64,000 nt of DNA from IMG/VR virus record IMGVR_UViG_3300028581_000024, positions 1-64,000 of that record. One strand, written 5' to 3'. Each line of letters begins with the position of its first letter. Positions within the stretch are counted from its first letter, which is position 1. The notes under the pieces are model-generated. The model was given only the letters and a program-made list of their open reading frames with translations, ran no database searches and was not told the origin of the DNA. Of the stretch, positions 29,644-62,660 are shown in pieces. Source of the DNA: a virus. The position numbers were made by a program, and so were the translations under genes.

Positions 29644-30087
29644 TTATTTACCGCTGCTACCAAATCCCTTTTCACCACGATCAGCCGCCTGAACTGCACC
29701 CCAATCAACCGACATTTGAATATTAAAATGCACAACTAGCTGTGCAATCCTATCACCTTTATTAACCTGGTATGGTTGATCATTATGATTGTACAGTAGT
29801 ACTCCTAAATCTCCCCTATAGTTCTGATCGATAACACCGGGATGTGCTAAGACACCGCTCTTAAAGCTTAGCCCCGATCTCGACTCCACACTTATCCAGT
29901 ATCCCGGTTCAATATAAGCTAATTTTAAGCCTACCGGCACCACAACACGGTCATTCGCTGGAATTACTGTACTTTCTACAGCTGAAAGATCCCACCCTGA
30001 ATCGGACGGGTAATTCTTCTGCGGTAAAACAGCATCCTGGTGTGTTTTCTCAAATTTCATAAAAGGATTATAGGTGGGTAGTTCCAT
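29644..30087 (-). CDS. dut: Trimeric dUTPase
   Basis: SGWDL, SRSGL, GVIDQNYRG, GDRIAQL, RGEKGFGSSG (motifs I-V). Start at the second ATG, inferred from promoter spacing. Confidence 0.96.
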   Translation of the reverse strand: MELPTYNPFMKFEKTHQDAVLPQKNYPSDSGWDLSAVESTVIPANDRVVVPVGLKLAYIEPGYWISVESRSGLSFKSGVLAHPGVIDQNYRGDLGVLLYNHNDQPYQVNKGDRIAQLVVHFNIQMSVDWGAVQAADRGEKGFGSSGK

Positions 30088-30093
30088 AAACAT

Positions 30094-30131
30094 AATATAA
30101 CGTATGGTATATCGAATTCAATAGATAAATA
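30094..30131. promoter_or_regulatory. Back-to-back sigma70-type (minus) and late-type (plus) promoters
   Basis: Minus TTGAAT-16-TATATT-6-ATG(30087); plus GATAAATA(30124-30131)-taat-GTG(30136). Confidence 0.72.
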
Positions 30132-30135
30132 TAAT

Positions 30136-30630
30136 GTGGACGAAAAAGAATTTAGTGTCAATGATCTTATTAATGAACTGAACATTAATACCAAGGAAAA
30201 CAAAGCTCTTCTAAAGAACGAAGAGTTCAATCTACCTAAAGATAAGTTGGAAGAATTTGTATTGAATAGTACAGGTAGATTGGTAACACAAGGGCTCGAG
30301 ATTGTTGAAGGGGTTAAGGAATATGTTATGAATAATCCAGAGAGCAGAGAAGTACTAGCTCTATCAGATGCGTTAAAAGCGGTAGCAAGCGCACTTTCAG
30401 TAGTTAAGGATATACATGTATCTCAAATAAAGCGAGATAGTGCTAAAGATCTCAAGACTATGGAAATCGAGGCAAAGAAAAATATTAAGGAAGAAGAAGC
30501 TAGAGTTGGTCTGTTTATTACCCGGGATGAGCTTTTTAGGAAAATAATGGAAGATGCTAAAGTGATAGAAACAGAGGCTTCTGTAATTACGAAACCCCAA
30601 GCACTTTCCGAGTCGTCACCGAACTCGTAA
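30136..30630 (+). CDS. Probable terminase small subunit (gp16-like)
   Basis: LVTQGLEIVEGVKEYVMNNPESREVLALSDALKAV helical hairpin plus a C-terminal LFITRDELFR segment, matching the T4 gp16 layout. 164 aa; late promoter. Confidence 0.55.
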   Translation: MDEKEFSVNDLINELNINTKENKALLKNEEFNLPKDKLEEFVLNSTGRLVTQGLEIVEGVKEYVMNNPESREVLALSDALKAVASALSVVKDIHVSQIKRDSAKDLKTMEIEAKKNIKEEEARVGLFITRDELFRKIMEDAKVIETEASVITKPQALSESSPNS

Positions 30631-36180: not shown

Positions 36181-36184
36181 AATA

Positions 36185-36192
36185 TATTTATA
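36185..36192 (-). promoter_or_regulatory. Late promoter TATAAATA, 4 nt before ATG
   Basis: TATAAATA-tatt-ATG(36180). Confidence 0.82.
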
Positions 36193-36203
36193 ACAAAATT
36201 ATC

Positions 36204-37987: not shown

Positions 37988-37992
37988 CAACA

Positions 37993-44344: not shown

Positions 44345-44371
44345 AAAAGCCGTCTTTATGACGGCTTTTTT
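44345..44371. terminator. Rho-independent terminator
   Basis: aaaagccgtc-tttat-gacggctttttt, followed directly by TATAAATA(44374-44381)-atag-ATG. Confidence 0.88.
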
Positions 44372-44385
44372 ATTATAAATAATAG

Positions 44386-44781
44386 ATGAGTATTTTTAGA
44401 GAAGCATTTCTACAGGCTCTTCAAGAAGATTTAATTAATTCTGCCACAACATGGAATACGGGCATAGGGCAGCTACATTATTCTGGTGCTATCTTTCCAA
44501 AAGTTAATCTAGACAAGCCAAAAGAACGACATAGAAAGGTTATTAAGGATCCAAAATTCAGAAAACATGCTCAAACAGTACCAGACATGCATAAAGCAGA
44601 TCATACAGCTATACAGGCCGTCAATAATATGAGTGGTAAAAAGTTATCAGAAGACGAATTACAACAAATTTGTAAAAAATATGGCATTTCTAGGCTCAAT
44701 ACCCAGCAATCTAAAAATTTAGGTAATACTGGCAAAGTCTTACGCTTCGATCCTAATGTACGGGGCTATGTACTACAATGA
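44386..44781 (+). CDS. Hypothetical late protein
   Basis: 131 aa with late promoter; N-terminus MSIFREAFLQALQE. Confidence 0.7.
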   Translation: MSIFREAFLQALQEDLINSATTWNTGIGQLHYSGAIFPKVNLDKPKERHRKVIKDPKFRKHAQTVPDMHKADHTAIQAVNNMSGKKLSEDELQQICKKYGISRLNTQQSKNLGNTGKVLRFDPNVRGYVLQ

Positions 44782-45533: not shown

Positions 45534-45871
45534 GGCTTAATAATTTCTTGCAATTCGGCTTCAGGTATTTCCTCTTCGATCTCTACAACTTCATCCTTAT
45601 CAATAAACTTGGGAATACATGTTGCAATAATATCTTTCTTAAATTCCTCACGTTCAATATCTAGCAACATAGTCTCCATACGCTGCTCAATATACTTTTG
45701 AAAAGCTAATGGTTTAACCCAAAAGTCATCCGATATCATATCTGCTTTAAGTTCTGCGGCTCTACGCTCTACAACATCAATAGCCTCAATCAAGCAAAGC
45801 CACCTAGCGTACTCGTCTTTTTTTAGATTATGCGTTTTATTTCCAACAACCGTAATATTATTTTCGTTCAT
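45530..45871 (-). CDS. Hypothetical protein
   Basis: 113 aa; promoter TTGAAC-17-TACCAT-6-ATG (45878-45906). Confidence 0.7.
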   Translation of the reverse strand: MNENNITVVGNKTHNLKKDEYARWLCLIEAIDVVERRAAELKADMISDDFWVKPLAFQKYIEQRMETMLLDIEREEFKKDIIATCIPKFIDKDEVVEIEEEIPEAELQEIIKP

Positions 45872-45915
45872 TTATAAATGGTATAAGAAATACTAAACCC
45901 GTTCAAGCACTTTAT

Positions 45916-46308: not shown

Positions 46309-46733
46309 ACTTCCTCCTTTACATTTTCAACTTGTTGTAAAAGTACTTGCGGGTCAGTAGCTACCGGTATAGTGGACAGTACTGTTTTTAATTTAACTAA
46401 AACATTAACCGTCTTATTACAACCCGGGCAGTTATATTCGTTCCGCTCATTTAACAAAATAGGGACAAAGCTTTTCACCCCACGATCGCAAGGACACGTA
46501 ACTGTTGATCCTTGCTTACTCAACTCAGCCTCTCGCTCAACTATCAATCTTTCCTCTTCTATAGCTAACTTTTTCTCTGTATAGTCTCTATAAAAATAAA
46601 AACAAACAAACTGTAGCGCAACAAAAAAACCTAATGCGCTTAGAAAGTTAACATGCAAAAAGGTAAATGGCCAAGCAAGTACACTACCGACTAGAAATGT
46701 AAGGCCGAAACTCGATAAGAGCCTAGTAAACAT
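46305..46733 (-). CDS. Two-TM membrane protein with C-terminal zinc ribbon
   Basis: Two hydrophobic N-terminal helices, then CPC...CPGC. Promoter TTGAAA-16-TATTAT-6-ATG (46740-46767). Confidence 0.7.
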   Translation of the reverse strand: MFTRLLSSFGLTFLVGSVLAWPFTFLHVNFLSALGFFVALQFVCFYFYRDYTEKKLAIEEERLIVEREAELSKQGSTVTCPCDRGVKSFVPILLNERNEYNCPGCNKTVNVLVKLKTVLSTIPVATDPQVLLQQVENVKEEV

Positions 46734-46753
46734 GTATTAATAATATACGAAGC

Positions 46754-47128
46754 TTACTCTTTTTCAACTATCTTATTAAGCTGTTCTGTACAAGAAAATA
46801 TAGCATCTTGTATGGCTTCCATTTTCTTGTTTAACTCTCTAATAGCTTTTATACCTTCTACATTATCTTTGACAACAGGGTTCACTAGACTATTTTGCAG
46901 TTGACGTCTAAAATCAGCACATTTCACAAAAATATCCCCAAGATAATCTAAGGCAAGTTCTAAGGGAAATGGTAGTCTTTTTGGAGCATTTGTGGTATTT
47001 CTATATCTATTAACAATATCCGCAACCGTAATAACCTCGGGCTGTAAATCACGAGTAGCTATGCCGCTTACCCATTTATTATATAATTTCTGTGAATCTT
47101 CACTTAAAACACTAGGCCTTTTGCTCAC
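46754..47128 (-). CDS. Hypothetical late protein
   Basis: 124 aa; ATTAAATA(47133-47140)-atat-GTG. Confidence 0.65.
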   Translation of the reverse strand: MSKRPSVLSEDSQKLYNKWVSGIATRDLQPEVITVADIVNRYRNTTNAPKRLPFPLELALDYLGDIFVKCADFRRQLQNSLVNPVVKDNVEGIKAIRELNKKMEAIQDAIFSCTEQLNKIVEKE

Positions 47129-47595: not shown

Positions 47596-48632
47596 TTTAT
47601 TTGCGCAAGCGTAACACTACCCTTCAATCCACTATAGGTATGTTCAAGAATAAATTTCTCTGATATTTCTGTTATATTGTGCTTGATACAAACATCATTA
47701 AGATCTTTTATTTTGCCTAATTCTGTTGGCCATAGAAAGACACTGTGACCCTGCTTAAGTAAAAAAGCGGTCTTCTTTTTACTAGCTTTATCAACACGCT
47801 GATTGTCTAATATCCATATTTTGTTAAGTAGATTAAACTGACTTAATTGATTTTCTTGCTTCTGTGTGAATACTGAACCCTTGCCTTCATTAATACCGGC
47901 AACAGCCACACCGTTTTTTACGAAGCATGCATCCAAAGGACCCTCCGTAATAAAAATAGCTTTCCGCTTCACATCTACTCTATCGATACCAAACAAAGTC
48001 TTTTCACTATTTTGCTTTGAGAGGTACTTCGGCATAGGGTGTGCATTATTTTCTATCAAGGTGCGAGATTGATAGTGTACTATTTTACCATCAACGTCAT
48101 AAAAAGGAATAATCAATCTATTTTTATGAACTTTATCTGTAAGACTAACCCAGAAAGTCTCCGGTCTATTGCAGGCATTGCTAAGGCGTCTTGTAGTCAG
48201 TAACTGTAATGCTGCTTTTACATATCTATTATCTTTATGGTATTGTATTTGTATACTATCTGAGAGGTTAATACTATCTTCAGGAAGTACACTAGTAACA
48301 TTTTCAACAGCAGGCTCCTTAATATCGTGCACTAGATCTTGTGTATAATTGTCAGGGGTAGCGGAGAACTGATTGTTCTCTCGCATTATCTCAACATAGG
48401 TAAGATTAGCCACAGTCTGGATCCATCTCACAGGTCGTACACTTAAGCCGCAATTATGACAGAAGACTAAGTTCTTTTTTATAATATAATATAGACGTCG
48501 CTTCTTACCCCATGAATTGCCCTCACGACATGTAGGACAGCCACCGCTATACGACTTGGTTATCTTATTATATTTCGGATACCCAGCGTATTGGTAGAAT
48601 TTAGAAACAATATAATCTTCGTTTAGTAGCAC
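47592..48632 (-). CDS. gp61: DNA primase
   Basis: CPTC...CHNC zinc finger, RLIIPF, QSR, PKYL, TOPRIM ITEGPLDA, LDN, KDLND. Confidence 0.93.
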   Translation of the reverse strand: MLLNEDYIVSKFYQYAGYPKYNKITKSYSGGCPTCREGNSWGKKRRLYYIIKKNLVFCHNCGLSVRPVRWIQTVANLTYVEIMRENNQFSATPDNYTQDLVHDIKEPAVENVTSVLPEDSINLSDSIQIQYHKDNRYVKAALQLLTTRRLSNACNRPETFWVSLTDKVHKNRLIIPFYDVDGKIVHYQSRTLIENNAHPMPKYLSKQNSEKTLFGIDRVDVKRKAIFITEGPLDACFVKNGVAVAGINEGKGSVFTQKQENQLSQFNLLNKIWILDNQRVDKASKKKTAFLLKQGHSVFLWPTELGKIKDLNDVCIKHNITEISEKFILEHTYSGLKGSVTLAQIN

Positions 48633-48638
48633 TACTAT

Positions 48639-48670
48639 AGTATAAAGGAATAATTGATAATATCAATTAT
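48639..48670 (-). promoter_or_regulatory. Sigma70-type primase promoter overlapped by a 21-bp palindrome
   Basis: TTGATA-16-TATACT-6-GTG; ATAATTGATA-A-TATCAATTAT at 48650-48670. Confidence 0.75.
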
Positions 48671-50716: not shown

Positions 50717-51441
50717 TTGATTAAAGATGACGCTATATAGCGAGTTTTTACAGGACCGTCGAGTAGTTGAAATAATACGACCCCTAATTTTTGATTAATT
50801 TTACACTCTAACTGCTTTACTCTCACACTACTAATTATTCTTATCAATTCGAAGTTCAAGCATAAATTTGTTAATTCCTCTCCTTTGTATTCACTAAGGG
50901 GTATCGAAATACTGTCAACATTTTGACGAGCTCGATCCGTAAGGTCACCAAAGATCTTTCCTTCTTTTGAATATAGATATAATTTGTTACTCTCTGACGC
51001 AAAGGTAGACCCTCTAAGCAGTTCGATTAGTGATTTATATTGAATAACAAACTCAATTGGAAAATTTAAACTAGCTATTTTTGATACATTTACCTTGGGC
51101 GCAGTAATGATACCATCTTCAAGCAAATGATATTTAAAGCGTATCTCAGGACCGCTGTAGTTGATATTATTTTTATCTACAGTAATCGTAAAGCTATCTG
51201 TACTGATACACTCAAATGCCTTGATAACCTTTTTAATGTCTGAAATATTTAAATGAATAGGAACATCAATATTAGTATCAACTTTGTACTGTGAATGAAG
51301 TATTACTGAGGTATCAGAAGTACAAACTAGGCTTGAAAAACCTTCCCCATCCAAAGTTACGACACAACTATCATTTAGCTTGCCTAATGGCTGTAGAAAG
51401 CCATTTATAAAGAGTTTTTTATCAGGAATATTTACATTCAC
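50713..51441 (-). CDS. gp45: Sliding clamp (gp45/PCNA-like)
   Basis: 242 aa with a two-domain alpha/beta pattern (LNISDIKKVIKAF, FKYHLLEDG, C-terminal RYIASSL) in the replication cluster. Promoter TTGCTT-15-TATAAT-7-GTG. Confidence 0.7.
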   Translation of the reverse strand: MNVNIPDKKLFINGFLQPLGKLNDSCVVTLDGEGFSSLVCTSDTSVILHSQYKVDTNIDVPIHLNISDIKKVIKAFECISTDSFTITVDKNNINYSGPEIRFKYHLLEDGIITAPKVNVSKIASLNFPIEFVIQYKSLIELLRGSTFASESNKLYLYSKEGKIFGDLTDRARQNVDSISIPLSEYKGEELTNLCLNFELIRIISSVRVKQLECKINQKLGVVLFQLLDGPVKTRYIASSLIK

Positions 51442-51475
51442 AAGGATTATTATATACTACAAAAACGAAAAGCAA

Positions 51476-51904: not shown

Positions 51905-52737
51905 TAATCAAGCCCCTCAAGCAACTTTTTAACAGTGTCATCTTCGAGAACATCTGTTGAATCGGTCGCAGAGGGGGTTGAAGCTTCAGACTTATTCGCT
52001 TTAACCGGCTTGGCATCAGTGTCAGACGCCTCCGATGAACAATAGTAATGCTCATCGAGCATCGATTTCAACTCTTCGTAACTCTTTACAGTAAAGACTG
52101 ACTCGAGATCGATAATATTTTTATAGGTATCATCAATCTTACCCTTATCTAACCCTTCAACAGCTCTAGGCATCATAAACTTACTACTAACATAAGTCGG
52201 GTAATCCCCCTGCTGCTCTACTTTAATCTTTAGATTACAGCCCTTATCGGTAAGATCAAAAATACGAGCACCGAGATCTTCAGACCCCTCACCTTCAATA
52301 GCGTCCATAATAATTTTATGGAGTTGCTTACCATAGCGTACAATCATTACCTTACCGTTATTATCTGGATTAACGGGGTCGTTTACGACATAGGCATTTA
52401 CCAGCCACTTTTCAGATCGCAAAATAGCACGGGCTTTAGTCTTCTCATCTTCTGTTCCAGTCTTAAGAGTTTTATAACGAACCTCGGCAATAGGATCACG
52501 AGCACCAAAAGACGTCGGGCTCACCGTATAAACATACTGACCGGTACAAAAACTAGTCCAGCCAAAAGTATAATAGTGAAAGAATGTCTTGGTTGGATTA
52601 CCGACATTAGGAAGTAAGCGGACAGTATATGTATTGCCTACTTCAAGTTTCAAAATATCCTTATTACGGGATACGGGGTTATTTTTAGCAAGAGCACCTT
52701 TAATGCTCTCGAACATCGAATTGGTAATTGTACTCAT
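51904..52737 (-). CDS. gp32: Single-stranded DNA-binding protein
   Basis: TVRLLP, DPIAE, LVNAYVVNDPVNPDNNGKV..YGKQL, IFDL..GCNLKIK, YPTYVSSKF, acidic tail. Promoter TTGATT-16-TATTAT-7-ATG. Confidence 0.92.
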   Translation of the reverse strand: MSTITNSMFESIKGALAKNNPVSRNKDILKLEVGNTYTVRLLPNVGNPTKTFFHYYTFGWTSFCTGQYVYTVSPTSFGARDPIAEVRYKTLKTGTEDEKTKARAILRSEKWLVNAYVVNDPVNPDNNGKVMIVRYGKQLHKIIMDAIEGEGSEDLGARIFDLTDKGCNLKIKVEQQGDYPTYVSSKFMMPRAVEGLDKGKIDDTYKNIIDLESVFTVKSYEELKSMLDEHYYCSSEASDTDAKPVKANKSEASTPSATDSTDVLEDDTVKKLLEGLD

Positions 52738-52768
52738 ATTGTTTATAATATATGATTAGTTTTTAAAA

Positions 52769-53406
52769 TCAAGCAAGATTTTTTTTAATTTTTCGCAAAC
52801 CAGCAATGGCCAGCTGTTTGGCGGACGTACTGCCTAAAAATTTAGTTCGGAAGACAGAAATGTTGTCGTAGATATCTCCTAAAGTAAATCTAAGCAAATC
52901 AGGGTCATGTAATTGCAATTGTTTTTCAAAATTGGCAAATACAAACAGATTATAGATGCTAACATTATGATTTTTAAGATGTGTAATAAAGGCATTTTGA
53001 ATCCCATCTTTGTAGTTAGGGTAATCATCAACAGCAATTGCCTTTTCGTCACAAAACTGTTGTATGAACTTTAACCCCTTGACAATATTCTTAAGATGAT
53101 AGCTATCATCAGGTGGTAGTAGCAGCTTCTTCTTTAGTGACATGGTATAAACCTTTATTGCTTTTGGTGAAGAGTAAAAATTTAAATCAAAGCCGCTCTC
53201 ACCGGGGTAAATTGTATACGGTGCATTAAAAAATTCTGTTACATCAACATTTTTATTTCGTGTAAAGAAGTTTTTGAGACGTAGCACGTGGGATATACAA
53301 TTGACTCTTCAAAACCTTCCCACTGCTTTCTGAATCTGAAGGGTAAACCACTCTGGGTTCTAGAAATCTTTAAATATGTATTGTAAATTAGCTTATCTAG
53401 TGTCAT
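52769..53406 (-). pseudogene. gp59-like helicase loader split by a one-base frameshift (or assembly error)
   Basis: ATG 53406 (ATGA overlap) gives MTLDKLIYNTYLKISRTQSG...VYP, then the 172-aa ORF continues in the -1 frame. The joined product is about 212 aa and lies upstream of gp32. Confidence 0.6.
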
Positions 53407-53717: not shown

Positions 53718-55082
53718 TTAGGGATTCTCGCTCATTGACGTCAGTGTCTTTGTAAACTGTATAGCCTCCTCACTCTCATTTATTGTATCATCTTCTGTAA
53801 TTACTAGCGTGTTATAATCAATCTTAAGGGCAATACTACCGAAATTAGGCCCGAAACGATTTTTTGACATGCCAATATTAATAAGACCGAGTTCTTTATC
53901 TTCATCTTTTTGCCAAATAGATATAATTGCATCGGACGTTGTAGCAAGACCGATACTTTCAGAGATAGTTTCCAATCCAGGATTATCTACATTATACCCA
54001 GACCGATTTAACTGTGTCGCAGAAACAATTGGACACATAATATCATAACTAATTGCCCTAACTTGCTGTGCACAATACAGAATTCGTTCATAACTATTAT
54101 TGCCTAGAGGACTGTGTAGCAAATTAAGATAATCGAGCACAATTAAATCAATCTTAATACCTTTCTGCATTAACTTTTTAATAAAACCTTTGAGCTGAAA
54201 CGGAGTTAATGTGGATGGTGGGAATTCCTTAATAATAATTTTAGATTTTTTACCCTTAGCTATATCTTTTATCTGCTGTTTAAGAGATTCTGACTCTTCT
54301 TTAAGATGACTAAGCGGAATACTCGTAATAGCTGATGAAAGTCTTCTTGCATACATCATCTCACTCATTTCTAGTGATACAAGCAATACATTTTTACCCT
54401 GCATTGCGACATTTGTTGCAACGTTACCAAGGAAAATACTCTTACCAACGTTAGTTTCACCGGCAAAAACGTACAACGACCTACCATTTTCAAGAAACCC
54501 CCCACCTAATTTGTTATCTAACCACCTCCAACCCGTCTTTACACATGGTTCTTCTCTGTGTAAATCAGAAACAAACCTATCAACCTCGCCAAACAACTCC
54601 AAACCCATATTTTGAGTTAAGTTTACACCTACAGCCTTTTCAAATTTCTCTAAAAGTTCTGCTGTATTAAGCTGTTTACTGTCCAGCCTCTCGGCTGCTT
54701 CAAGTAGCGCGTTATAGACACCCTTTTCCTTGAGAAAAATCTCTGTATTTTCTACCAACTCACTTCTATTGAACTTTTTATCTATATCGGTAAAGGATAT
54801 TACAAGCTTTTTGAAATTTTCTTTTAATTCATCCGTAGTTAAGTACGCTTTTAACTCGGTATGAGTGGGCACAGTACCATGCTCTTTGAAAAAGCTTACA
54901 ATAATACGTACAATATTCTTTGTATCAATATTTTTAAAGAACTTTACATCTAAATGATCTATCACAGAAGATAGAAACACAGGATCAACCAAGCAATTAT
55001 ACGCAATAATGTGCTCGTAAAAATCTAGATCTAGAGTTTTCTTAGATGGGCTCGTTATTCCATTTTCGAATGAAGGCTTCAT
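53718..55082 (-). CDS. gp41: Replicative DnaB-family helicase
   Basis: AGETNVGKS, VSLEMSE, IKEFPP, VLDYLNL, SATQLNRSG, SESIGL, KNRFG. Confidence 0.96.
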   Translation of the reverse strand: MKPSFENGITSPSKKTLDLDFYEHIIAYNCLVDPVFLSSVIDHLDVKFFKNIDTKNIVRIIVSFFKEHGTVPTHTELKAYLTTDELKENFKKLVISFTDIDKKFNRSELVENTEIFLKEKGVYNALLEAAERLDSKQLNTAELLEKFEKAVGVNLTQNMGLELFGEVDRFVSDLHREEPCVKTGWRWLDNKLGGGFLENGRSLYVFAGETNVGKSIFLGNVATNVAMQGKNVLLVSLEMSEMMYARRLSSAITSIPLSHLKEESESLKQQIKDIAKGKKSKIIIKEFPPSTLTPFQLKGFIKKLMQKGIKIDLIVLDYLNLLHSPLGNNSYERILYCAQQVRAISYDIMCPIVSATQLNRSGYNVDNPGLETISESIGLATTSDAIISIWQKDEDKELGLINIGMSKNRFGPNFGSIALKIDYNTLVITEDDTINESEEAIQFTKTLTSMSENP

Positions 55083-55707
55083 TACTCTTATTCCACTCCT
55101 TATCGTTTAAATCCCTTAATCCTGGGCTCTGATGATAGATTAATATAGGCCATACACCTAGTTTAAGCCGGTTCGCGTTGCAAGTCAAGCTAAAATCAAT
55201 GTCATAATGGTGCCACATGAATTGTTCATCAAATCTAGCTCTGGCACCACGTATTTTTCTGTTATCTAAAGCTAAAAAGACACCATCTAGTACAGCAACC
55301 CGTGCAGGTGATGGTCCGAATGTTGTAATAGCCATACTTTCCTCTGAAACTGGGTGAGCTGCAAAGCCTCTATAGTATTCCTTTGAAATCATCCAATGCC
55401 ATAGATTCTTTTCTTTAATTGTTGGGTTTAAACCACCAGCAACCCCGACAATATCAAAGCGCTTTAAAGCTGCCCTTAATGTTTGCAGATTACAATACTC
55501 TAGACTTATGTCATGATGACATAAAATGATAATATCGTATATAGAATTCTCTTTATTTGTTATAACACTATTGTAATACTCTGATAGACCTATAGTTTTG
55601 TTATTATAGACGATATGTAGGTCTATATCTTTTAAATCCTTACAGCTACGTTCGAGTAAACAGTCAGAATCAAGCGGACTTATAGCGAAAATACCTATTT
55701 TACTCAC
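55042..55707 (-). CDS. Glycosyltransferase, GT-A/GT2-like
   Basis: GLSEYYN, ILCHHDI, IVGVAG, VLDGVFLA, FDEQF.WHHYDIDFSL, HQSPG. Confidence 0.85.
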   Translation of the reverse strand: MSKIGIFAISPLDSDCLLERSCKDLKDIDLHIVYNNKTIGLSEYYNSVITNKENSIYDIIILCHHDISLEYCNLQTLRAALKRFDIVGVAGGLNPTIKEKNLWHWMISKEYYRGFAAHPVSEESMAITTFGPSPARVAVLDGVFLALDNRKIRGARARFDEQFMWHHYDIDFSLTCNANRLKLGVWPILIYHQSPGLRDLNDKEWNKSNEAFIRKWNNEPI

Positions 55708-55713
55708 GAATAA

Positions 55714-55741
55714 ATATTAATAGATAGATATAAATAATCAA
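55714..55741. promoter_or_regulatory. Overlapping divergent promoters
   Basis: Minus TTGATT-16-TAATAT-6-GTG(55707). Plus TATAAATA (55729-55736) lies inside its spacer and serves ATG 55747. Confidence 0.72.
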
Positions 55742-55746
55742 GTATT

Positions 55747-56619
55747 ATGAATTTAGATAGCAAACTAATGTTTGAAGCGTATATCACTAGTAAACAACAG
55801 ATTTTAACTGAAGCTCCAATTGAAATGGGTGGGGATATTAATGTCGAGCCTGTAACAAAAAAGACTTTACCTGGCCAAGGCAAGGGGTATGGTGCCGGTG
55901 CTATTACTAAAATTGCAGCAGCGCAAGGTAAGTCTGAAGAAGATGTTGCAACAGAGATGGCAAAAACGGTTCTAGATTATACAAAAGAGAAAAAAATGGT
56001 TGATGGTAAGGAGGTTTACTACTTCCCTGGTGATCCAAAGACATTCATTAACGAACTAACACCAGTTTTTAAAGATAAGTTTGGTATTCCTGCTTCCATG
56101 GCCGGATTTACTGTGAATTATATTTTAATATATCTATTAAATGCTAAAAAGACTTCTGGTGGATTAAAAATGGATGCACAAAAAGTAAAAGCTGCAAAAG
56201 AAATGAAAGCTGCTACAAAAGCCGAACCAAAAACAGAGACTGTGTATGAGATTGATAAGGCTGTACGTATTCCTGAGAAAAATTTAAGAGCTCTTGTGCT
56301 TAGTCTGCCTGATGATGATGTGCCTGAGCGTGAAATCCTGTCAGTTGTAAAAACAGCTTTGCAAGAGTATAATGAAACACCTGGCTTGGCAAAAGAAGAT
56401 GCAATTAAAATGAGGTCTCTTGAAGTTGTAGACAAATTAACAGAATATGGTGTACTCAAAACAAAACAAATTGAAAAGGCCCAAGCTGAAGGTGAAGGCT
56501 CTGGAGAAGTAGAAACTGTTGAAGATTTTCCTGAAGGTGATGACATTTACTCAGCAGCCAAACAAGAATTTCGCTTGAGAGATACACCAGGTGATAAGAA
56601 TTACGGTGACTTCAGTTAA
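55747..56619 (+). CDS. Late protein, candidate head-internal protein
   Basis: 290 aa, K/E-rich; MNLDSKLMFEAY...ILTE|AP fits gp21-type cleavage. Confidence 0.65.
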   Translation: MNLDSKLMFEAYITSKQQILTEAPIEMGGDINVEPVTKKTLPGQGKGYGAGAITKIAAAQGKSEEDVATEMAKTVLDYTKEKKMVDGKEVYYFPGDPKTFINELTPVFKDKFGIPASMAGFTVNYILIYLLNAKKTSGGLKMDAQKVKAAKEMKAATKAEPKTETVYEIDKAVRIPEKNLRALVLSLPDDDVPEREILSVVKTALQEYNETPGLAKEDAIKMRSLEVVDKLTEYGVLKTKQIEKAQAEGEGSGEVETVEDFPEGDDIYSAAKQEFRLRDTPGDKNYGDFS

Positions 56620-57305
56620 CTGAAGAACGGGCTATTAAAATCAAAATTTGCCACTGAAGTTAGTCCCTCTGGGGTTACCTCATACACAACACCTTCTTCA
56701 ACAGCTTCACTTCCTTTGAACTTTACACTACTAAAGGTATTATCAATTTTATTTGCAAACAAAGTACTGCCACACCTGGCTATATATACCCCCCTGTAGT
56801 CAGTGTTTATAATCCATAAACCAAAAGTGCCTTCAAGGTGTGAGAGAGCAGTTGAAATTATCTCAACTGAATGGCCCTGTGAATTGACAGCTTGCTGGAT
56901 CTTGTATAACATAAGTGGAATGGTGCTCGAATCTACTGGGTTCTTCCACTTTGGATCAAACTGTTGCTTAATTTCATCAAAATTTGTCAAAACACCATTG
57001 TGTGCTACAATCCAATTCTCTGTATTGAAGGGGTGAGACGTTTCCCGGGAATACTTTCTCTTCGAAGAGGTTGGTGCTTGTGTATGTCCTAGTAAATAGA
57101 GCGGAGACATCCCAGCATCTTTCAAGCTTTTCTTAATTTCTTTGTCCATATCTTTAACAGCAACAGTACCACTCCAGCGATGTACAATAACATTGCTGTC
57201 TGTGGTTAAAATGGCTAAAGATGTGGAGAAAGTGCCGCGCTTGCGGTTTAAATCGTAAAGATCTAAGAATTGTTCTTGCTTAACAGCGCCAAAAATACCG
57301 CACAT
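56616..57305 (-). CDS. Class II (Ntn) glutamine amidotransferase
   Basis: MCGIFG catalytic Cys, RKRG, LGHTQAPT, HPF, AHNGVLTNF, VDS. Starts immediately after the queC stop. Confidence 0.9.
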   Translation of the reverse strand: MCGIFGAVKQEQFLDLYDLNRKRGTFSTSLAILTTDSNVIVHRWSGTVAVKDMDKEIKKSLKDAGMSPLYLLGHTQAPTSSKRKYSRETSHPFNTENWIVAHNGVLTNFDEIKQQFDPKWKNPVDSSTIPLMLYKIQQAVNSQGHSVEIISTALSHLEGTFGLWIINTDYRGVYIARCGSTLFANKIDNTFSSVKFKGSEAVEEGVVYEVTPEGLTSVANFDFNSPFFS

Positions 57306-58049
57306 TTAAGTATTATAGTCATCATAATCGATTTTTCTACAATTATACTTCTGCCACACGTGAGATAAGTCTTGTTTGTATGATTGTGGGTCAATGAAAC
57401 CTGCATTAGCAAAGCCTTTAATACGCAAAGCGCTGCTTGCAGAATTAGCATCCGCTTCAGTTTCTCCTGAATAGCAAGTATATGTCTTACTAAATTTAAC
57501 TTTTAACCTTACACCCTCTTTAATAATGTCAGCCTTGACCATCTTTATTAACGGTGCTTCTATTTTAATTTGAACTTCACGATTTAGCGCAAGCACATCG
57601 TTAATCGTAGGCAAAAATTCTGGACTTGCATCCCAATAACCGGCCAAGCTGTCAACTCCCGTCGCGCCATGATATACTTTAACCGCACCCACCGCTTCAG
57701 CATAAGCAGCAGCAACACTCAAAAACATCATGTTACGGTTAGGCACATACGACTTGGGTTGCGCCTCACCAGCAACCTCTCTTATATCAGGCGTATCAAT
57801 ATCATTGTTTGTAAGGCTGCTTGTTGGAGCTATATCTCTTATAAACCGTACATCAATAGTCTTAAACGCACCGCATTTTTTTTCATTGGCATGGTATGCT
57901 GCTAATTCCAATTCACGTAAATGGCGTTGACCATAATTAAAGGCAATTGCAAATACATTCTCTGATCCCGCCTCTTCACATGCTTTGTATAACAAAACTG
58001 TGCTATCCATTCCACCACTTATTGGAATTACAATTTTATTTTGGCTCAT
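57306..58049 (-). CDS. queC: 7-cyano-7-deazaguanine synthase QueC-like protein (zinc site degenerate)
   Basis: ISGGMDS PP-loop, FNYGQRH..EL, SSLT, YVPNRNMMFLSVA, YWD.SPEF, IEAPL, TYTCY. Confidence 0.9.
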   Translation of the reverse strand: MSQNKIVIPISGGMDSTVLLYKACEEAGSENVFAIAFNYGQRHLRELELAAYHANEKKCGAFKTIDVRFIRDIAPTSSLTNNDIDTPDIREVAGEAQPKSYVPNRNMMFLSVAAAYAEAVGAVKVYHGATGVDSLAGYWDASPEFLPTINDVLALNREVQIKIEAPLIKMVKADIIKEGVRLKVKFSKTYTCYSGETEADANSASSALRIKGFANAGFIDPQSYKQDLSHVWQKYNCRKIDYDDYNT

Positions 58050-59651: not shown

Positions 59652-60004
59652 TATTCGTCAAATAGCTTAATTACTGGTGCGTCTTTGCCTTTGCCTTCGT
59701 TAACCGGCTTTGCAGCGGCAAAGATTCTTGTATACTGTTCGCCGATCTTTGGATCTAGCTTTACAGCAGACGTGACAATGCTATTTTTCGAGAAATTAAA
59801 TACTGCTCCTTCATTTCTCGATTTCTCCTCAATAAATTCCTTAAAAAATAATGGAATCAATTGAACTTGTAATTGTCCGCTCTGATTAGGGCTAACATGA
59901 AGTACTGCTGGATTCTTTACAGAAAGACCAGCTGCATCTTCAGATACCTTCTCAGCTAGGACTGTTTGACCGACATGATTAATGAATACTGTTATATTGC
60001 TCAT
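59651..60004 (-). CDS. Hypothetical protein (small beta-rich)
   Basis: 117 aa; promoter TTGATT-16-TATATT-6-ATG (60011-60038). Confidence 0.7.
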   Translation of the reverse strand: MSNITVFINHVGQTVLAEKVSEDAAGLSVKNPAVLHVSPNQSGQLQVQLIPLFFKEFIEEKSRNEGAVFNFSKNSIVTSAVKLDPKIGEQYTRIFAAAKPVNEGKGKDAPVIKLFDE

Positions 60005-60034
60005 AAGATTAATATAATGGCTCTTTTGAGAAAA

Positions 60035-62626
60035 TCAAGCACCAAGTAGCTCAAAAAGATCACATTGTGTGGCTTCACCGGGTTTTCTTGGTGACCAACT
60101 AACACATTCATAAAATCTTTCTACAGCACTATAGATAATTTTTTCAAACATTAGCTCTGTATCTGGCTGGAAGATCTTCTCAAACTCTTCAGGGTAATAA
60201 TATTTGTAAGCAATTGCATTAATACCGTATCTATTCGGCTGCTTTACATAAAAATATCTAATCTTGTCACCACTACCAATAGATTCATATTTTTTATCTA
60301 CGTTAAGGGTCTTCAGAAGCATATTATGGTGATATGCTGCTTTTACGTGTATAGGCATTGACTTGACCGTCCTAAACCCATCACATTTACTAGAATACTT
60401 CTCATACCCTTTCAATCCTGTTACGAAAGAAAAATCGCTAATCGGAAGCCCTTGGAACACATCATAAGCCTCTGTAATCACTTCATTAGTCTTTTGCTGA
60501 TCTTGTGTGAGTAACATAGTCTCTACAATTTTCTTAGCTAGCGGCTTGATTGGAGCAGGCATAGTAGTACGGGCAATCTCTACACCTGTGTACTTGAACT
60601 TATTACATGGTATACCCTCTTCATCTAGCACACGAATAACATAGCGTTTTTTCTGTAAAAATAGACCAACATCACAAATTACCTCACGCTTAAAAGTAAT
60701 TCTACTATCAAGACTGTTGAGATTTTTTTCACACCATACTTGTATTTGCTGATTGAGATGCGTTTCAATACCATTTACTAAATTATGAAATTCTGGTGTA
60801 ATTTTAGACTTACTGTCTATCGCATTAATATTGAGAGTCTTGACTAAGCTCTCTAGAGAAATATAACTAGAATCCGTATCATTATAGATAATTGGCGTAT
60901 TTTTTTCAATCTCTTCAGCACTTAATCCAGACTTTTGTTGGATATAATCTGTTAAAATCTTATTGCCCTGTTTAATAACCGCTTGACCAGTCAGAGTAAT
61001 GCTTCTGGCCAAATCATCATCGCCTAGAGGGAAAACCTTATTACCTAACGCACCGTAGACCGTATTAATAAAAATCTTGATTGTATGTTGTTTGATATTC
61101 AAAACAGAGAGTTTGTCTTTCAGTTCTTGATACATAGGGTCCTTTTTATCTAGTTCTGATAATTGTCTCTTAATTTTCTTATGCTCCTTTCTCACCTGCA
61201 CACGAAGCTTATAGTACTGGTCAACCATTTCCGGTATAATGCCCTTATGCTTCTGACTAAAGAGTACTTTTGCTTTACTGATAGCTAACTTTTCCTCTTG
61301 AACAAGCTTTGCAAACTTAGCCATAGGAACAACTACCGTTCTACTATTAACATCACGAATAGTAACATCTTTATCCGTTTGTGATTCTATTACACCCATC
61401 TTAGTTTCAGGTGAAAGATTGAGAGTAATCATAACAGATGGGTACAGGCTATTGGCGTCAAAACTCACAATGTATTTTTGAAATCCACGCTTTGGATCCC
61501 CGACATACGCACCTTCATTCTGCTTACCGTCATCCGCACCACGTATAAAAGTAGGTATTTTTTTATTTCTATAGCGTGCTCGAATAGCACATGCACCAAT
61601 AATTACACTCATACTGCCCATCGCAGCTTCCATGGTCGTCAAGCCGGTATAACTTAGCATTCGGAGTAGTTCAAAGTATTGCAGCTTTTCTTCAAGCTTA
61701 ATCAAAAGTCGAACGTCTTGTACGTTATATTCAACAAAGGTATCCCAATCTGTGTCGGCCAGAGTACTTAAGTTAGTATTACCAAAATCTATTTTAGATT
61801 CTCCTAACTCAATTATGGCAATATTATTAAGCTTATAGTTTTCTCGCAAAACCATGCAAAATCTCTTGTAAATATCAAGATAATCTAAACAAGAGATACC
61901 GTCTATATACCATCGAACCTGCTCTCTACCGAACTGGCCTTTCAGGGTTCTACTATGGACTCTACCCATGGGGCTCAGGCGACGCACCGTGTCATCATCA
62001 AACAACACCCTGATGCGATTAATTAAATACGGTAAGTCAAACAAAATAGAATTCCAACCCAAGAGTACATCTGGATAGTCACTCTCTATATATGTAATGA
62101 ACTTTAAAAACATTTCTTTTTCTGTTTTACAGAAGTAGAATTTATGATCCGCAGCAGTCTTGGTATAAGGTTTTGTACCCCAGGTTATGTACTTTTTACT
62201 TAGACTGTCATAAATTGTAATAACATTTACAGCATGATTAGCTGTCTCTACATTAGGAAAGTCATCAACAGAATATGTTTCGATATCAAGAAAGAATAGC
62301 TTAAGAGGGAACCTTGAAAACTCTGTCGATTCATTATGTTCCCAGAAATTATCAATTAAAAATTGCTGACCTGGTGAAAGATTTTCAAATACTCTAACTG
62401 TATCTGTTTCTTTTAAATATTTTGACTTTTCAAATTGATTCTTAAAAACTTTTTTCTTAAGATTAGTATTGAAGATACTAACTGCGTCCTTTGCATTGTT
62501 AGATTCTAGGTAAATATAGGGCTTGAATGTAGAATCAATAGCAATTCTATTACCTGATGCATCCCAGGTGAACAGCCGAATAAGCTCCTGCCTAGGGTCG
62601 TATGCAATATTTCTATAGCCTATCAT
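60035..62626 (-). CDS. gp43: Family B DNA polymerase
   Basis: ExoI LDIET, GWNSILFDLPYL, YNVQDV; SFDANSLYPS, KIFINTVYG, YNDTDS, KKRY. Confidence 0.98.
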   Translation of the reverse strand: MIGYRNIAYDPRQELIRLFTWDASGNRIAIDSTFKPYIYLESNNAKDAVSIFNTNLKKKVFKNQFEKSKYLKETDTVRVFENLSPGQQFLIDNFWEHNESTEFSRFPLKLFFLDIETYSVDDFPNVETANHAVNVITIYDSLSKKYITWGTKPYTKTAADHKFYFCKTEKEMFLKFITYIESDYPDVLLGWNSILFDLPYLINRIRVLFDDDTVRRLSPMGRVHSRTLKGQFGREQVRWYIDGISCLDYLDIYKRFCMVLRENYKLNNIAIIELGESKIDFGNTNLSTLADTDWDTFVEYNVQDVRLLIKLEEKLQYFELLRMLSYTGLTTMEAAMGSMSVIIGACAIRARYRNKKIPTFIRGADDGKQNEGAYVGDPKRGFQKYIVSFDANSLYPSVMITLNLSPETKMGVIESQTDKDVTIRDVNSRTVVVPMAKFAKLVQEEKLAISKAKVLFSQKHKGIIPEMVDQYYKLRVQVRKEHKKIKRQLSELDKKDPMYQELKDKLSVLNIKQHTIKIFINTVYGALGNKVFPLGDDDLARSITLTGQAVIKQGNKILTDYIQQKSGLSAEEIEKNTPIIYNDTDSSYISLESLVKTLNINAIDSKSKITPEFHNLVNGIETHLNQQIQVWCEKNLNSLDSRITFKREVICDVGLFLQKKRYVIRVLDEEGIPCNKFKYTGVEIARTTMPAPIKPLAKKIVETMLLTQDQQKTNEVITEAYDVFQGLPISDFSFVTGLKGYEKYSSKCDGFRTVKSMPIHVKAAYHHNMLLKTLNVDKKYESIGSGDKIRYFYVKQPNRYGINAIAYKYYYPEEFEKIFQPDTELMFEKIIYSAVERFYECVSWSPRKPGEATQCDLFELLGA

Positions 62627-62632
62627 CTTTTT

Positions 62633-62660
62633 ATTATAATGGAACTTCTGTATTTGGCAA
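62633..62660 (-). promoter_or_regulatory. Sigma70-type promoter of the DNA polymerase gene
   Basis: TTGCCA-16 bp-TATAAT-aaaaag-ATG(62626). Confidence 0.85.

What the first reader, a model, noticed from the sequence alone, without database searches (positions are those of the whole stretch)
30087..62660. Sigma70-type promoters place +1 on the start codon: leaderless early/replication mRNAs
Seen in the sequence, nine minus-strand genes share one layout: pol TTGCCA-16-TATAAT-6-ATG; 60004 TTGATT-16-TATATT-6-ATG; glycosyltransferase TTGATT-16-TAATAT-6-GTG; gp32 TTGATT-16-TATTAT-7-ATG; gp45 TTGCTT-15-TATAAT-7-GTG; primase TTGATA-16-TATACT-6-GTG; 46733 TTGAAA-16-TATTAT-6-ATG; 45871 TTGAAC-17-TACCAT-6-ATG; dut TTGAAT-16-TATATT-6-ATG. 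None has room for a Shine-Dalgarno sequence. Established: sigma70 initiates about 6-7 nt after the -10 hexamer, so +1 would be the A/G of the start codon. Seven of nine have a 16-bp spacer rather than 17. Inference: replication operons start with leaderless mRNAs, unlike T4. This points to a leaderless-proficient host, or to a strategy that lets phage mRNA escape shut-off of leadered translation.
Basis: partly seen in the sequence, partly recalled or inferred. Interest (0 to 1): 0.8.

Follow-up and report, generated by a model that had tools for sequence, protein, structure and literature searches.

The report
Promoters fused to phage start codons
An uncultured lake relative of phage T4 puts ordinary bacterial-type promoters so close to the start codons of its DNA-replication genes that their messages should begin at the start codon itself, with no ribosome-binding leader.

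Summary
All nine layouts are at the stated coordinates. For dut the layout holds only for the second ATG (30087), and relatives support that start.

The geometry is far beyond chance:
- On the 92-kb contig, 12 of 94 gene first starts carry TTG-15/17-TAnnnT-6/7, against 3 of 729 internal ATG/GTG codons (Fisher p = 9e-10).
- Relatives with 59-95% polymerase identity keep the hexamers and distances while the bases between them drift.
- Distant T4-like contigs show no case at 5-7 nt and peak at 19-24 nt.

The layout also heads UvsY, QueD, thymidylate kinase and other genes beyond the window. In a complete 229.7-kb relative it heads 46 of 324 genes. T4-type late boxes also abut start codons.

Best reading: real sigma70-type promoters that give leaderless mRNAs, followed by translationally coupled genes.

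Limits:
- No RNA data exist: no RNA run was listed.
- The host is unknown; the DNA comes from lake water.
- Nearest parallels in print are Thermus phage phiYS40, Cluster O mycobacteriophages and Deinococcus-Thermus genes.
- This scan has already noted the same layout in other lake T4-like phages.

The parts
62624..62660 (-). Promoter-start unit of DNA polymerase gp43 (gene 60035-62626): -35 TTGCCA 62655-62660, 16-nt spacer, -10 TATAAT 62633-62638, 6 nt, ATG 62624-62626.
   Evidence: Searches give the sequence. In one search, 18 of 21 relatives show TTG-16-TAnnnT-6/7-ATG or GTG with different spacer and 6-nt sequences, and the other 3 (L016/L017/L022) show TTGTAC-16-TATAAT-6-GTG. PHROG DNA polymerase, residues 15-849 on profile 20-844.
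60002..60038 (-). Promoter-start unit of a 117-aa unknown gene that heads the coupled run to UvsX, a cytidylyltransferase-like gene, QueC and an amidotransferase (60004 down to 56616). -35 TTGATT 60033-60038 overlaps the pol stop codon; -10 TATATT 60011-60016; ATG 60002-60004.
   Evidence: Best PWM hit on the contig, 21.9 bits. The layout is kept in all 22 relatives printed. Downstream genes overlap by 1, 4 or 14 nt or abut.
55705..55741 (-). Promoter-start unit of a 221-aa gene (weak glycosyltransferase-like hit) that precedes the DnaB-like helicase: -35 TTGATT 55736-55741, -10 TAATAT 55714-55719, GTG 55705-55707.
   Evidence: In relatives the start is GTG or ATG at the same distance. Pfam Glyco_tranf_2_5 scores only 18.6 bits against a cut-off of 27.
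52735..52772 (-). Promoter-start unit of gp32 single-strand DNA-binding protein: -35 TTGATT 52767-52772 overlaps the upstream stop codon, -10 TATTAT 52745-52750, 7 nt, ATG 52735-52737.
   Evidence: All 15 relatives printed keep TTGATT-16/17-TAnnnT-6/7-ATG. PHROG ssDNA-binding protein, residues 9-254 on profile 14-268.
51439..51475 (-). Promoter-start unit of the gp45 sliding clamp: -35 TTGCTT 51470-51475 directly after the upstream stop codon, 15-nt spacer, -10 TATAAT 51449-51454, 7 nt, GTG 51439-51441.
   Evidence: GTG is the start in all 15 relatives printed. The TTG-to-start distance is the same 34 nt as in the 16/6 units. PHROG processivity factor.
48630..48666 (-). Promoter-start unit of the primase: -35 TTGATA 48661-48666, -10 TATACT 48639-48644, GTG 48630-48632.
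   Evidence: By my reading of the printout, 27 of 35 primase loci down to 45% identity keep TAnnnT 5-6 nt before the start (26 GTG, 1 ATG) and 8 do not.
46731..46767 (-). Promoter-start unit of a 142-aa unknown gene: -35 TTGAAA 46762-46767 lies in the end of the upstream ORF, -10 TATTAT 46740-46745, ATG 46731-46733.
   Evidence: An in-frame stop lies 6 nt upstream of the ATG. No PHROG or Pfam family.
45869..45906 (-). Promoter-start unit of a 113-aa unknown gene: -35 TTGAAC 45901-45906, 17-nt spacer, -10 TACCAT 45878-45883, ATG 45869-45871.
   Evidence: An in-frame stop lies 3 nt upstream. This is the weakest -10 of the nine. No family hit.
30085..30121 (-). Promoter-start unit of dUTPase: -35 TTGAAT 30116-30121, -10 TATATT 30094-30099, 6 nt (which contain the first ATG, 30091-30093), ATG 30085-30087.
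   Evidence: By my reading, 16 of 20 dut loci keep TAnnnT-5/6-ATG. The first ATG is lost in relatives (AGG in L135, CTT in L136-L138), so 30087 is the supported start.

Best explanation
These are genuine bipartite sigma70-type promoters, with consensus TTGATT, a 16-nt spacer and TATAAT. They are read by the host RNA polymerase, possibly after modification by the phage. They sit so that the favoured initiating purine, 7 nt after the -10 hexamer, is the A or G of the start codon.

Each unit therefore makes an mRNA with no 5' leader, or at most 1-2 nt, and no Shine-Dalgarno sequence. Ribosomes must engage the 5'-terminal AUG/GUG of the first gene directly. Downstream genes are then translated by coupling, through 1- or 4-nt stop/start overlaps.

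Shown:
- the geometry and its enrichment at true gene starts;
- its conservation through sequence drift across a clade of lake T4-like phages;
- its absence from other T4-like phages;
- the near absence of SD motifs.

Inferred:
- the transcription start position;
- that the leaderless form is the translated one;
For: 1. Position. The distance from the -10 end to the first start codon peaks at 6 nt: 11 hits on the contig and none at 10-23 nt. 12 of 94 starts carry the geometry against 3 of 729 internal ATG/GTG codons.

2. Both boxes occur together. 11 of 13 genes with TANNNT at 6 nt also have TTG at 16-18 nt. That fits a promoter, not an AT-rich translation signal.

3. Independent model. A PWM built only from relatives' 28-nt promoters, with no start-codon information, gives 10 hits of at least 14 bits on the contig. 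Eight lie 5-8 nt before a gene start. One touches an ATG with a GTG 6 nt on. One is internal.

4. Conservation.
- In 13 non-redundant relatives plus the contig, 70 of 352 starts fall in the class, from 18 protein families, and 60 of the 70 have a 16-nt spacer.
- The hexamers and distances are kept while the spacer and the 6 nt vary.
- A wider clade (primase 45-51% identical, 65 loci not de-duplicated) again peaks at 6 nt, with 89 hits.
- A complete 229.7-kb relative has 46 of 324 genes in the class.

5. Control. In 26 distant T4-like loci (327 genes) there are 0 hits at 5-7 nt, and the peak is at 19-24 nt.

6. Initiation rule. +1 is always a purine: 52 ATG, 18 GTG and 0 TTG, against 32 TTG calls among the 282 other starts. 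ATG and GTG interchange within families. Position -1 is a pyrimidine in 34 of 48 16/6 units. In the 7-nt units, -1 is T in 9 of 12.

7. The starts are real. In-frame stops lie 3-42 nt upstream. N-termini match PHROG profile starts within a few residues for pol, gp32, UvsY, QueD, QueE, Tmk and a glycosyltransferase.

8. No alternative ribosome site. SD-like 4-mers occur upstream of 15 of 95 genes on the contig and 22 of 257 in close relatives (about the 8% background), against 87 of 326 in controls. About 33 of the 59 remaining genes overlap the upstream gene by 1 or 4 nt.

9. Precedent. Promoters placed like this give leaderless mRNAs in Deinococcus-Thermus (PMC12340547 abstract). They are predicted to do so in Cluster O mycobacteriophages (PMC4351075 passage). 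phiYS40 is reported to make mostly leaderless middle/late transcripts (PMC3594737 passage).
Against: - No transcript 5' ends, ribosome data or proteomics exist for this phage, and no RNA run was listed.
- Promoter-like hexamer pairs are common in this AT-rich DNA (82 against 68.9 +/- 9.1), so any single site is weak evidence.
- Terminator-like hairpins are not enriched between the units (15 against 11.0 +/- 3.1). Read-through polycistronic RNAs that carry these starts internally probably coexist.
- 5'-GUG leaderless initiation is inefficient in E. coli and Caulobacter (review passage). Yet gp45 and primase always use GTG, so translation efficiency depends on an unknown host.
- The first 35 nt of these genes are no less structured than those of other genes (mean MFE -2.34 against -2.26 kcal/mol, p = 0.41).
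- Some late genes do use a leader plus SD (sheath), so the host ribosome is SD-competent.
Confidence: 0.72

Rival explanations
1. The promoters are real, but the TTGATT box marks a phage-specific delayed-early or middle class. It would be read with the help of a phage-encoded factor, in the manner of T4 MotA/AsiA sigma appropriation, and not by unmodified host sigma70. The mRNAs would still be leaderless.
For: In the complete relative the -35 flavour depends on genome region. TTGATT occurs in 0 of 18 class members in the terminal regions (small genes, median 102 aa; 8 of 18 are TTGAC.) but in 16 of 28 in the central replication and metabolism region (p = 6e-5). The preferred 16-nt spacer and the T-rich -35 (A 34, T 37, T 32 of 48 at hexamer positions 4-6) differ from the TTGACA-17 consensus, which I recall and did not test. 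T4 replication genes use middle promoters (recalled).
Against: TTG with a 16-17 nt spacer and TATAAT is within normal sigma70 range. No AsiA (PF09010) or MotA C-terminal domain (PF09158) was found in the contig or in the complete relative, although these searches had no positive control. None of the 70 proteins scanned against PHROGs was named MotA or AsiA.
Confidence: 0.15
2. The promoters fire, but the leaderless transcripts are translated poorly. Most protein would come from longer read-through transcripts, by re-initiation or coupling after the upstream stop codon, which lies 0-45 nt before these starts. The abutting layout would then simply reflect genome compaction: promoters squeezed into roughly 30-nt gaps.
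For: Gaps to the upstream same-strand gene are only 4-47 nt for 9 of 15 class members. -35 hexamers overlap or touch upstream stop codons at 60004, gp32 and gp45. Terminators are not enriched.
Against: Compaction does not explain why the distance is fixed at 6-7 nt. It also does not explain why units with long gaps (227-5743 nt, 6 of 15) or divergent neighbours (pol, 55707, dut) keep the same 6 nt. Nor does it explain why +1 is never TTG, or why equally compact T4-like controls keep 19-24 nt.
Confidence: 0.1
3. The pattern is not a promoter at all. It would be an AT-rich translation-initiation context, or an artefact of calling the first start codon in AT-rich DNA.
For: Upstream regions of starts are AT-rich everywhere. 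TANNNT also piles up at distance 0 (15 genes) because of the late-box context.
Against: TTG co-occurs at a fixed 16 nt. A start-blind PWM recovers gene starts. Composition-preserving shuffles of the upstream stretches give a mean of 0.4 against 12 observed. Controls called by the same method show no peak at 6 nt.
Confidence: 0.03

Closest known systems
Leaderless middle/late transcripts of Thermus thermophilus phage phiYS40 (Sevostyanova et al. 2007). The paper is not held here; I know it from a review passage (PMC3594737) and from recall.
   Same: A lytic phage that relies on host RNA polymerase and makes most of a temporal class of mRNAs without a leader.
   Different: phiYS40 is not a T4-like phage. 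Its leaderless classes are middle and late, and its host belongs to a phylum where leaderless genes are common. The review says infection raises IF2 and lowers IF3. Here the units have a clear -35 box and head core T4-type replication genes, the host is unknown, and nothing is known about initiation factors.
-10 region adjacent to ORFs in Deinococcus-Thermus (PMC12340547; abstract, outline and passages read)
   Same: TANNNT a few bp upstream of the ORF acts as the promoter -10 for leaderless genes, with a spacing requirement relative to the ORF. Adding a -35 raises transcription.
   Different: That is a cellular, phylum-wide pattern that is mostly -10-only. Here it is a phage, with a conserved -35 TTGATT at a fixed 16 nt. 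No experiment has been done.
Predicted SigA promoters of Cluster O mycobacteriophages (PMC4351075, passages)
   Same: Phage promoters of the host primary-sigma type, predicted to put +1 on the first base of the start codon, including divergent pairs in AT-rich gaps.
   Different: Only three of 8-9 promoters per genome in siphoviruses of a high-GC actinobacterium. Here there are about 15 units on a 92-kb fragment and 46 in a complete relative, in T4-like myovirus-type genomes.
T4 early and middle promoters (T4 promoter details are recalled; the late-promoter review PMC2988020 was read in passages)
   Same: The same gene set (43, 32, 45, 61, uvsX, uvsY) and the same reliance on host polymerase with -10 TAnnnT. 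gp55 and TATAAATA-type late boxes are present.
   Different: T4-type controls keep 19-24 nt between the -10 and the start and use SD (87 of 326 genes). This lineage keeps 6-7 nt and has SD at background level. The leader operators T4 uses for gp32 and gp43 autoregulation (recalled) have no room here.
PeSL promoter-early stem-loop cassettes of T4-type phages (Arbiol et al. 2010). I know these only through earlier notes of this scan and did not read the paper.
   Same: Repeated early promoters in T4-type genomes. Earlier notes describe leaderless versions in lake T4-like phages.
   Different: Those are arrays of small accessory genes with near-identical repeats. Here the units head conserved core genes and share only the hexamers and the spacing.

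Membership tests
Leaderless genes driven by a primary-sigma promoter that abuts the start codon | -10 element (TAnnnT) ending about 5-8 nt before the start codon | tested here: met
   All nine sites. Sharp peak at 6 nt on the contig, in relatives and in a wider clade.
Leaderless genes driven by a primary-sigma promoter that abuts the start codon | Primary transcript 5' end mapped at, or within a few nt of, the first base of the start codon | not testable with these tools
   No RNA run was listed for this DNA. Read laying was not used because only DNA contigs were on offer.
Leaderless genes driven by a primary-sigma promoter that abuts the start codon | The codon next to the promoter is the true translation start | tested here: met
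   It is the first start after an in-frame stop 3-42 nt upstream. N-termini match PHROG profile starts. ATG and GTG interchange at the same position in relatives. The dut first ATG is lost in relatives. This is computational evidence only.
Leaderless genes driven by a primary-sigma promoter that abuts the start codon | No Shine-Dalgarno sequence available to the first cistron | tested here: met
   The 6-7 nt between the -10 and the start are A/T-rich, with G in at most 5 of 48 units at any position. 0 of 15 class members on the contig have an SD-like 4-mer at -18..-5.
Leaderless genes driven by a primary-sigma promoter that abuts the start codon | Protein is made from the leaderless mRNA | not testable with these tools
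   This needs ribosome profiling, toeprinting or reporter assays in the unknown host.
T4-type early promoters with leadered, SD-bearing mRNAs | -35 and -10 hexamers of sigma70 type | tested here: met
   TTGATT-16-TATAAT consensus from 48 units.
T4-type early promoters with leadered, SD-bearing mRNAs | A leader of roughly 15-30 nt carrying an SD before the first gene | tested here: not met
   6-7 nt here, against 19-24 nt between the -10 and the start in 26 distant T4-like loci. SD is at background level in the lineage.
T4 middle promoters (sigma appropriation by MotA/AsiA) | MotA and AsiA homologues encoded by the phage | tested here: inconclusive
   No PF09010 or PF09158 match in the contig or in the complete 229.7-kb relative, but the searches matched nothing in the control genomes either, so they lack a positive control.
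T4 middle promoters (sigma appropriation by MotA/AsiA) | A MotA box replacing the -35, centred near -30, about 12 nt from the -10 (recalled definition) | tested here: inconclusive
   The box here is TTGATT at the normal -35 position with a 16-nt spacer. In the complete relative it is confined to central-region genes while terminal-region units use TTGAC.. That suggests a separate class but does not show one.
Actinobacteriophage (as a test of an actinobacterial, leaderless-rich host) | WhiB-like gene, a common marker of phages of actinobacteria | tested here: not met
   PF02467 is absent from the contig and from five relatives' records, including the complete one. The control matched in Corynebacterium glutamicum. 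Absence does not exclude such a host.

The most novel reading that the evidence does not exclude
A whole clade of lake T4-like phages has largely given up 5' leaders. Both its sigma70-type promoters and its gp55-type late promoters fire on the start codon, core genes keep 5'-GUG starts, and followers are translated by coupling.

In this reading, phage protein synthesis runs mainly through 5'-end (70S-type) initiation. The phage supports it by supplying its own initiator-like tRNA, which was seen in the complete relative. The T4 leader-based autoregulation of gp32 and gp43 has been replaced by something else.

The layout would then be a readable signature of a host group with efficient AUG/GUG leaderless translation, and could serve to predict hosts for uncultured phages.
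Probability: 0.25. Interest if true: 0.75.

Novelty: new member of a known kind. Interest (0 to 1): 0.55.

Why it matters
T4 is the textbook for phage gene expression. Its early, middle and late mRNAs have leaders, SD sites and leader-based translational operators. Here the same core genes appear to be expressed with no leader at all, and the arrangement is conserved across a large uncultured lake clade.

If RNA mapping confirms this, several things follow:
- Leaderless initiation, including 5' GUG, can carry the whole replication programme of a large lytic phage.
- Start-codon and operon annotation of such phages could be corrected by a simple rule, as shown for dut.
- There would be a sequence-only clue to the translation biology of the unknown host.
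- Compact, well-defined promoter-start units would be available for testing leaderless translation.

My full-text searches found no description of leaderless early promoters in T4-like phages. These searches cover only the held open-access library.

Tried and rejected
RNA evidence: the look-up of sequencing runs listed no RNA holder.

Host identification led nowhere:
- Scans of genome contigs with pol, with a pol alignment and with GTP cyclohydrolase found no relative.
- The protein atlas on the epimerase gave mixed taxa.
- There are no tRNAs on the contig.
- WhiB is absent.
- One literature search on T4-like phages of Nanopelagicales gave one paper, which mentions only an apparent false-positive pairing.

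Other checks without result:
- Megablast of 18 kb against cultured phages found no match. Pol is about 30% identical to cyanophage and Caulobacter phage Cr30 polymerases.
- A generic sigma70 and terminator scan was not enriched.
- Rfam found no family in the window.
- 5' structure shows no difference between class and non-class genes.
- The idea that the class is -10-only was rejected: 11 of 13 have TTG.
- Thirteen TTG-start 'members' appeared in the wider clade. One search printed the 8 distinct ones: 7 are copies of one gene whose real TATAAT lies 14 nt before a downstream ATG, and 1 (L101) is a 75-aa ORF with a loose TATCCT match.
- AsiA and MotA searches found nothing, but had no positive control.
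- The phiYS40 primary paper could not be read.
- Supplementary files were not consulted. Promoter tables in the supplements of PMC12340547 and PMC8244752 might refine the spacing comparison.

Full report
WHAT THE DNA IS

The window is the first 64 kb of a single 92,062-bp viral contig. CheckV rates it 43% complete. It is a distant T4-like phage:
- Its family-B DNA polymerase is about 30% identical to those of cyanomyoviruses and Caulobacter phage Cr30.
- PHROGs identify gp43, gp32, gp45, primase, a DnaB-like helicase, UvsX, UvsY, SbcCD-like nuclease subunits, the gp55 late sigma factor, sheath, tube, baseplate wedge and large terminase. They also identify a deazaguanine set: QueC, QueD, QueE and GTP cyclohydrolase.
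- No close cultured relative exists.

The stretch is held at half or more of its sampled words by 7 runs not flagged as a possible source. They come from 5 studies and are labelled lake water (6) or aquatic (1) metagenome.

THE OBSERVATION

Eight of the nine start codons are the first possible start after an in-frame stop 3-42 nt upstream. For dut the geometry holds for the second ATG (30087), and the first ATG (30093) abuts the -10.

Several controls that differ in what they hold fixed show the pattern is not chance:
- The fixed pattern occurs 8 times in the window against 2.86 +/- 1.75 in shuffles. On the contig it occurs 16 times against 3.6 +/- 1.9, with no other spacer/distance combination above 10.
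- 12 of 94 gene first starts carry it, against 3 of 729 internal ATG/GTG codons (p = 9e-10). Composition-preserving shuffles of the 40 nt upstream give a mean of 0.4 and a maximum of 3.
- Measured from loose promoter-like matches (502 with a gene start downstream; 520 in all), the distance to the next gene start has a spike at 6 nt (11 hits) and nothing at 10-23 nt.
- The two boxes go together: 11 of 13 genes with TANNNT at 6 nt also have TTG 16-18 nt upstream.

A generic sigma70 scan is not enriched (82 against 68.9 +/- 9.1). What is special is the register with the start codon.

COMPARATIVE EVIDENCE

IMG/VR holds 25 loci with 59-99% polymerase identity. Upstream of pol, of the 117-aa gene, of the 221-aa gene, and of gp32, gp45, a glycosyltransferase and UvsY, the relatives keep TTG(ATT), a 16-17 nt spacer, TAnnnT and 6-7 nt before ATG/GTG. 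The spacer and the 6-7 nt themselves differ freely.

Pooled over the contig and 13 non-redundant relatives:
- 70 of 352 starts are in the class. They fall into 18 protein families, and 60 of the 70 have a 16-nt spacer.
- The unconstrained positions give the consensus TTGATT and TATAAT, an A/T-rich stretch upstream of the -35, and no extended -10 TG.

A PWM trained only on relatives' promoters, without start-codon information, finds 10 sites of at least 14 bits on the contig. Eight lie 5-8 nt before a gene start and one is the dut-like case at contig 70769. There is some circularity, since several of these are orthologous promoters.

The layout extends further:
- A wider clade (primase 45-51% identical; 65 loci, not de-duplicated) peaks at 6 nt with 89 hits, and 70 of 111 have a 16-nt spacer.
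- A complete 229.7-kb relative has 46 of 324 genes in the class.
- As a negative control, 26 distant T4-like loci analysed in the same way have no hit at 5-7 nt and peak at 19-24 nt. That is the usual leader with SD.

WHY THIS POINTS TO LEADERLESS mRNA

By established knowledge of sigma70 initiation, which I recall and did not test here, the start lies about 7 nt after the -10, with a purine preferred at +1 and a pyrimidine at -1. The sequences fit this rule:
- +1 is always A or G: 52 ATG, 18 GTG and 0 TTG. There are 32 TTG calls among the other 282 starts, though some of those are probably miscalled.
- ATG and GTG interchange within families: pol 7 and 4, the 221-aa family 3 and 3.
- Position -1 is a pyrimidine in 34 of 48 16/6 units. 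In the 7-nt units, -1 is T in 9 of 12, which pushes initiation onto the start codon.

There is no room and no sequence for an SD. G is rare in the 6 nt. SD-like 4-mers are at background level in the lineage (22 of 257 against 8%) and clearly enriched in the controls (87 of 326 against 6%). Of the 59 genes on the contig with neither promoter type abutting the start, about 33 overlap the upstream gene by 1 or 4 nt. The expression unit is therefore a leaderless head followed by coupled genes.

The N-termini implied by these starts fit the PHROG profiles within a few residues. For dut, relatives lose the first ATG but keep TAnnnT-5/6-ATG in 16 of 20 loci, by my reading. The geometry picks the correct start there.

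WHAT SPEAKS AGAINST, OR LIMITS, THE READING

- There are no RNA data.
- Terminators are not enriched, and several units sit 4-47 nt behind the previous gene. Read-through RNAs that carry these starts internally are likely. On such RNAs the starts have no SD either.
- GUG at a 5' end works poorly in E. coli and Caulobacter, according to a review passage (PMC9031893). Yet gp45 is GTG in all 15 relatives printed, and primase is GTG in 26 of the 27 loci that keep the layout. This either points to a host that handles 5' GUG well, as actinobacteria do in that review, or means these genes are translated weakly.
- The host could not be found.
- WhiB, a common marker of actinobacterial phages, is absent from the contig and from the complete relative.
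- 5' structure does not distinguish the class.

A leaderless-proficient host remains the simpler idea. Escape from a block on leadered translation is weakened. The late sheath gene keeps a TATAAATA box about 40 nt upstream and GAGGTG 9 nt before its ATG, so SD-led initiation seems to work late in infection.

The layout is also not confined to early or replication genes:
- 11 of the contig's 32 ATAAATA boxes end exactly 4 nt before a gene start, and 20 end within 4-11 nt. In the controls the distances are 14-35 nt.
- In the complete relative, 38 such boxes end 4-6 nt before a start.
- By the T4 rule the box spans -13 to -6 (review passage mentioning A(-13)). A 4-nt gap would then put +1 one base past the A, so the exact late start needs mapping.

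A POSSIBLE SECOND LAYER

In the complete relative the -35 flavour follows genome region. TTGAC. occurs in 8 of 18 terminal-region units, which head small genes. TTGATT occurs in 16 of 28 central units and in 0 of 18 terminal ones (p = 6e-5).

The window's nine units belong to the TTGATT-like group. This may mark a delayed-early or middle class, perhaps factor-dependent. No AsiA or MotA homologue was found, but without a positive control.

COMPARISON WITH WHAT IS KNOWN

The mechanism is known:
- Deinococcus-Thermus genes with a -10 next to the ORF (PMC12340547, abstract).
- Predicted SigA promoters of Cluster O mycobacteriophages (PMC4351075).
- phiYS40 middle/late transcripts (review passage; the primary paper is not held).

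phiKZ, mapped by dRNA-seq, has no leaderless transcripts (PMC8244752 passage). My full-text searches found no account of such promoters in T4-like phages.

This scan has already noted the same layout in other uncultured lake T4-like phages, mostly in arrays of small early genes. The present case adds that the conserved core replication and recombination genes use it too.

VERDICT

- Leaderless expression is the best-supported reading, at about 0.7. It is a new member of a known kind.
- It is of moderate interest, mainly because it overturns the T4 template for a large uncultured clade and may carry host information.

Noticed in passing
window 3823, 14338, 17289, 28064, 28115, 36180, 41668, 44386, 47128, 47179, 48855 (start codons; both strands): T4-late-type boxes ((T)ATAAATA) end 4-6 nt before many start codons. 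11 of 32 ATAAATA boxes on the contig are exactly 4 nt from a gene start, against 14-35 nt in distant T4-like controls. The gp55 late sigma is encoded at contig 66978-67574. Late mRNAs may therefore be leaderless too. By the T4 rule, +1 would fall one base past the A.
   Followed up: partly
window 55705-55749; also 30085-30138 and 62624-62675: Early-type and late-type promoters overlap back to back. The TATAAATA box for the + strand gene at 55747 (box 55729-55736) lies inside the spacer, and touches the -35, of the - strand 55707 promoter. The combined sequence is conserved in all 16 relatives printed. Similar pairs sit at dut/30136 and pol/62673. This could act as a built-in early-to-late switch by occlusion.
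   Followed up: partly
L162:14333-14406 (-), complete relative G001 (229,717 bp); not on the window's contig: The complete relative carries 8 tRNA genes. One CAT-anticodon tRNA is 88% identical over 67 nt to the E. coli tRNA-Met gene between argG and rimP-nusA. That is metY, the initiator, by recalled gene order. It keeps the A11:U24 pair, the initiator-type T loop and two of the three anticodon-stem G:C pairs, and it has a weak U1-G72 end. A review passage says extra initiator tRNA strongly boosts leaderless translation. The exact 35-mer occurs in 5 IMG/VR contigs.
   Followed up: partly
L162-L173 (G001), class members listed: There are two -35 flavours by genome region. TTGAC. is at the genome ends (8 of 18; small genes). 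TTGATT is in the central replication and metabolism region (16 of 28, against 0 of 18 at the ends). Several terminal units have G-rich discriminators such as AGGAGG directly before the ATG.
   Followed up: partly
L162-L163 (G001 7195-23732): The relative's tRNAs read A/U-ending codons (Glu-TTC, Leu-TAA, Arg-TCT, Thr-TGT, Gln-TTG, Ile-TAT, by anticodon). This hints at a host with higher G+C than the phage's 35%, which argues against very AT-rich hosts. It is an inference only.
   Followed up: no
window 44345-44388: A strong terminator hairpin (10 pairs, then a T run) is followed at once by TATAAATA-ATAG-ATG of the + strand gene at 44386. That gene can hardly be read from upstream, which supports promoter use right at the start codon.
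   Followed up: no
window 57303-57342 (-): The amidotransferase gene (ATG 57305) has TATAAT exactly 6 nt upstream, directly after the QueC stop codon, but no TTG at 15-18 nt. It is a possible -10-only internal promoter inside the coupled operon.
   Followed up: no
L052:8735-8780 (+) = contig about 70735-70780, beyond the window: A dut-like case. TTGACT-16-TATAAT abuts the first ATG (70769), and a GTG lies exactly 6 nt after the -10. The annotated start may be two codons too early.
   Followed up: no
contig 64095 (-), just beyond the window end: The glycosyltransferase gene has TTGATT-16-TAGATA-6-ATG. The geometry is the same but the -10 ends in A. Relatives show TATATA or TATAAT at that place. 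My TANNNT rule missed it.
   Followed up: partly
window 54901-54928 (-): The only strong promoter-like site (14.3 bits, TTGATA-16-TATTAT) that is not next to a start codon lies inside the helicase gene. It may be chance or an internal or antisense-unrelated promoter.
   Followed up: no
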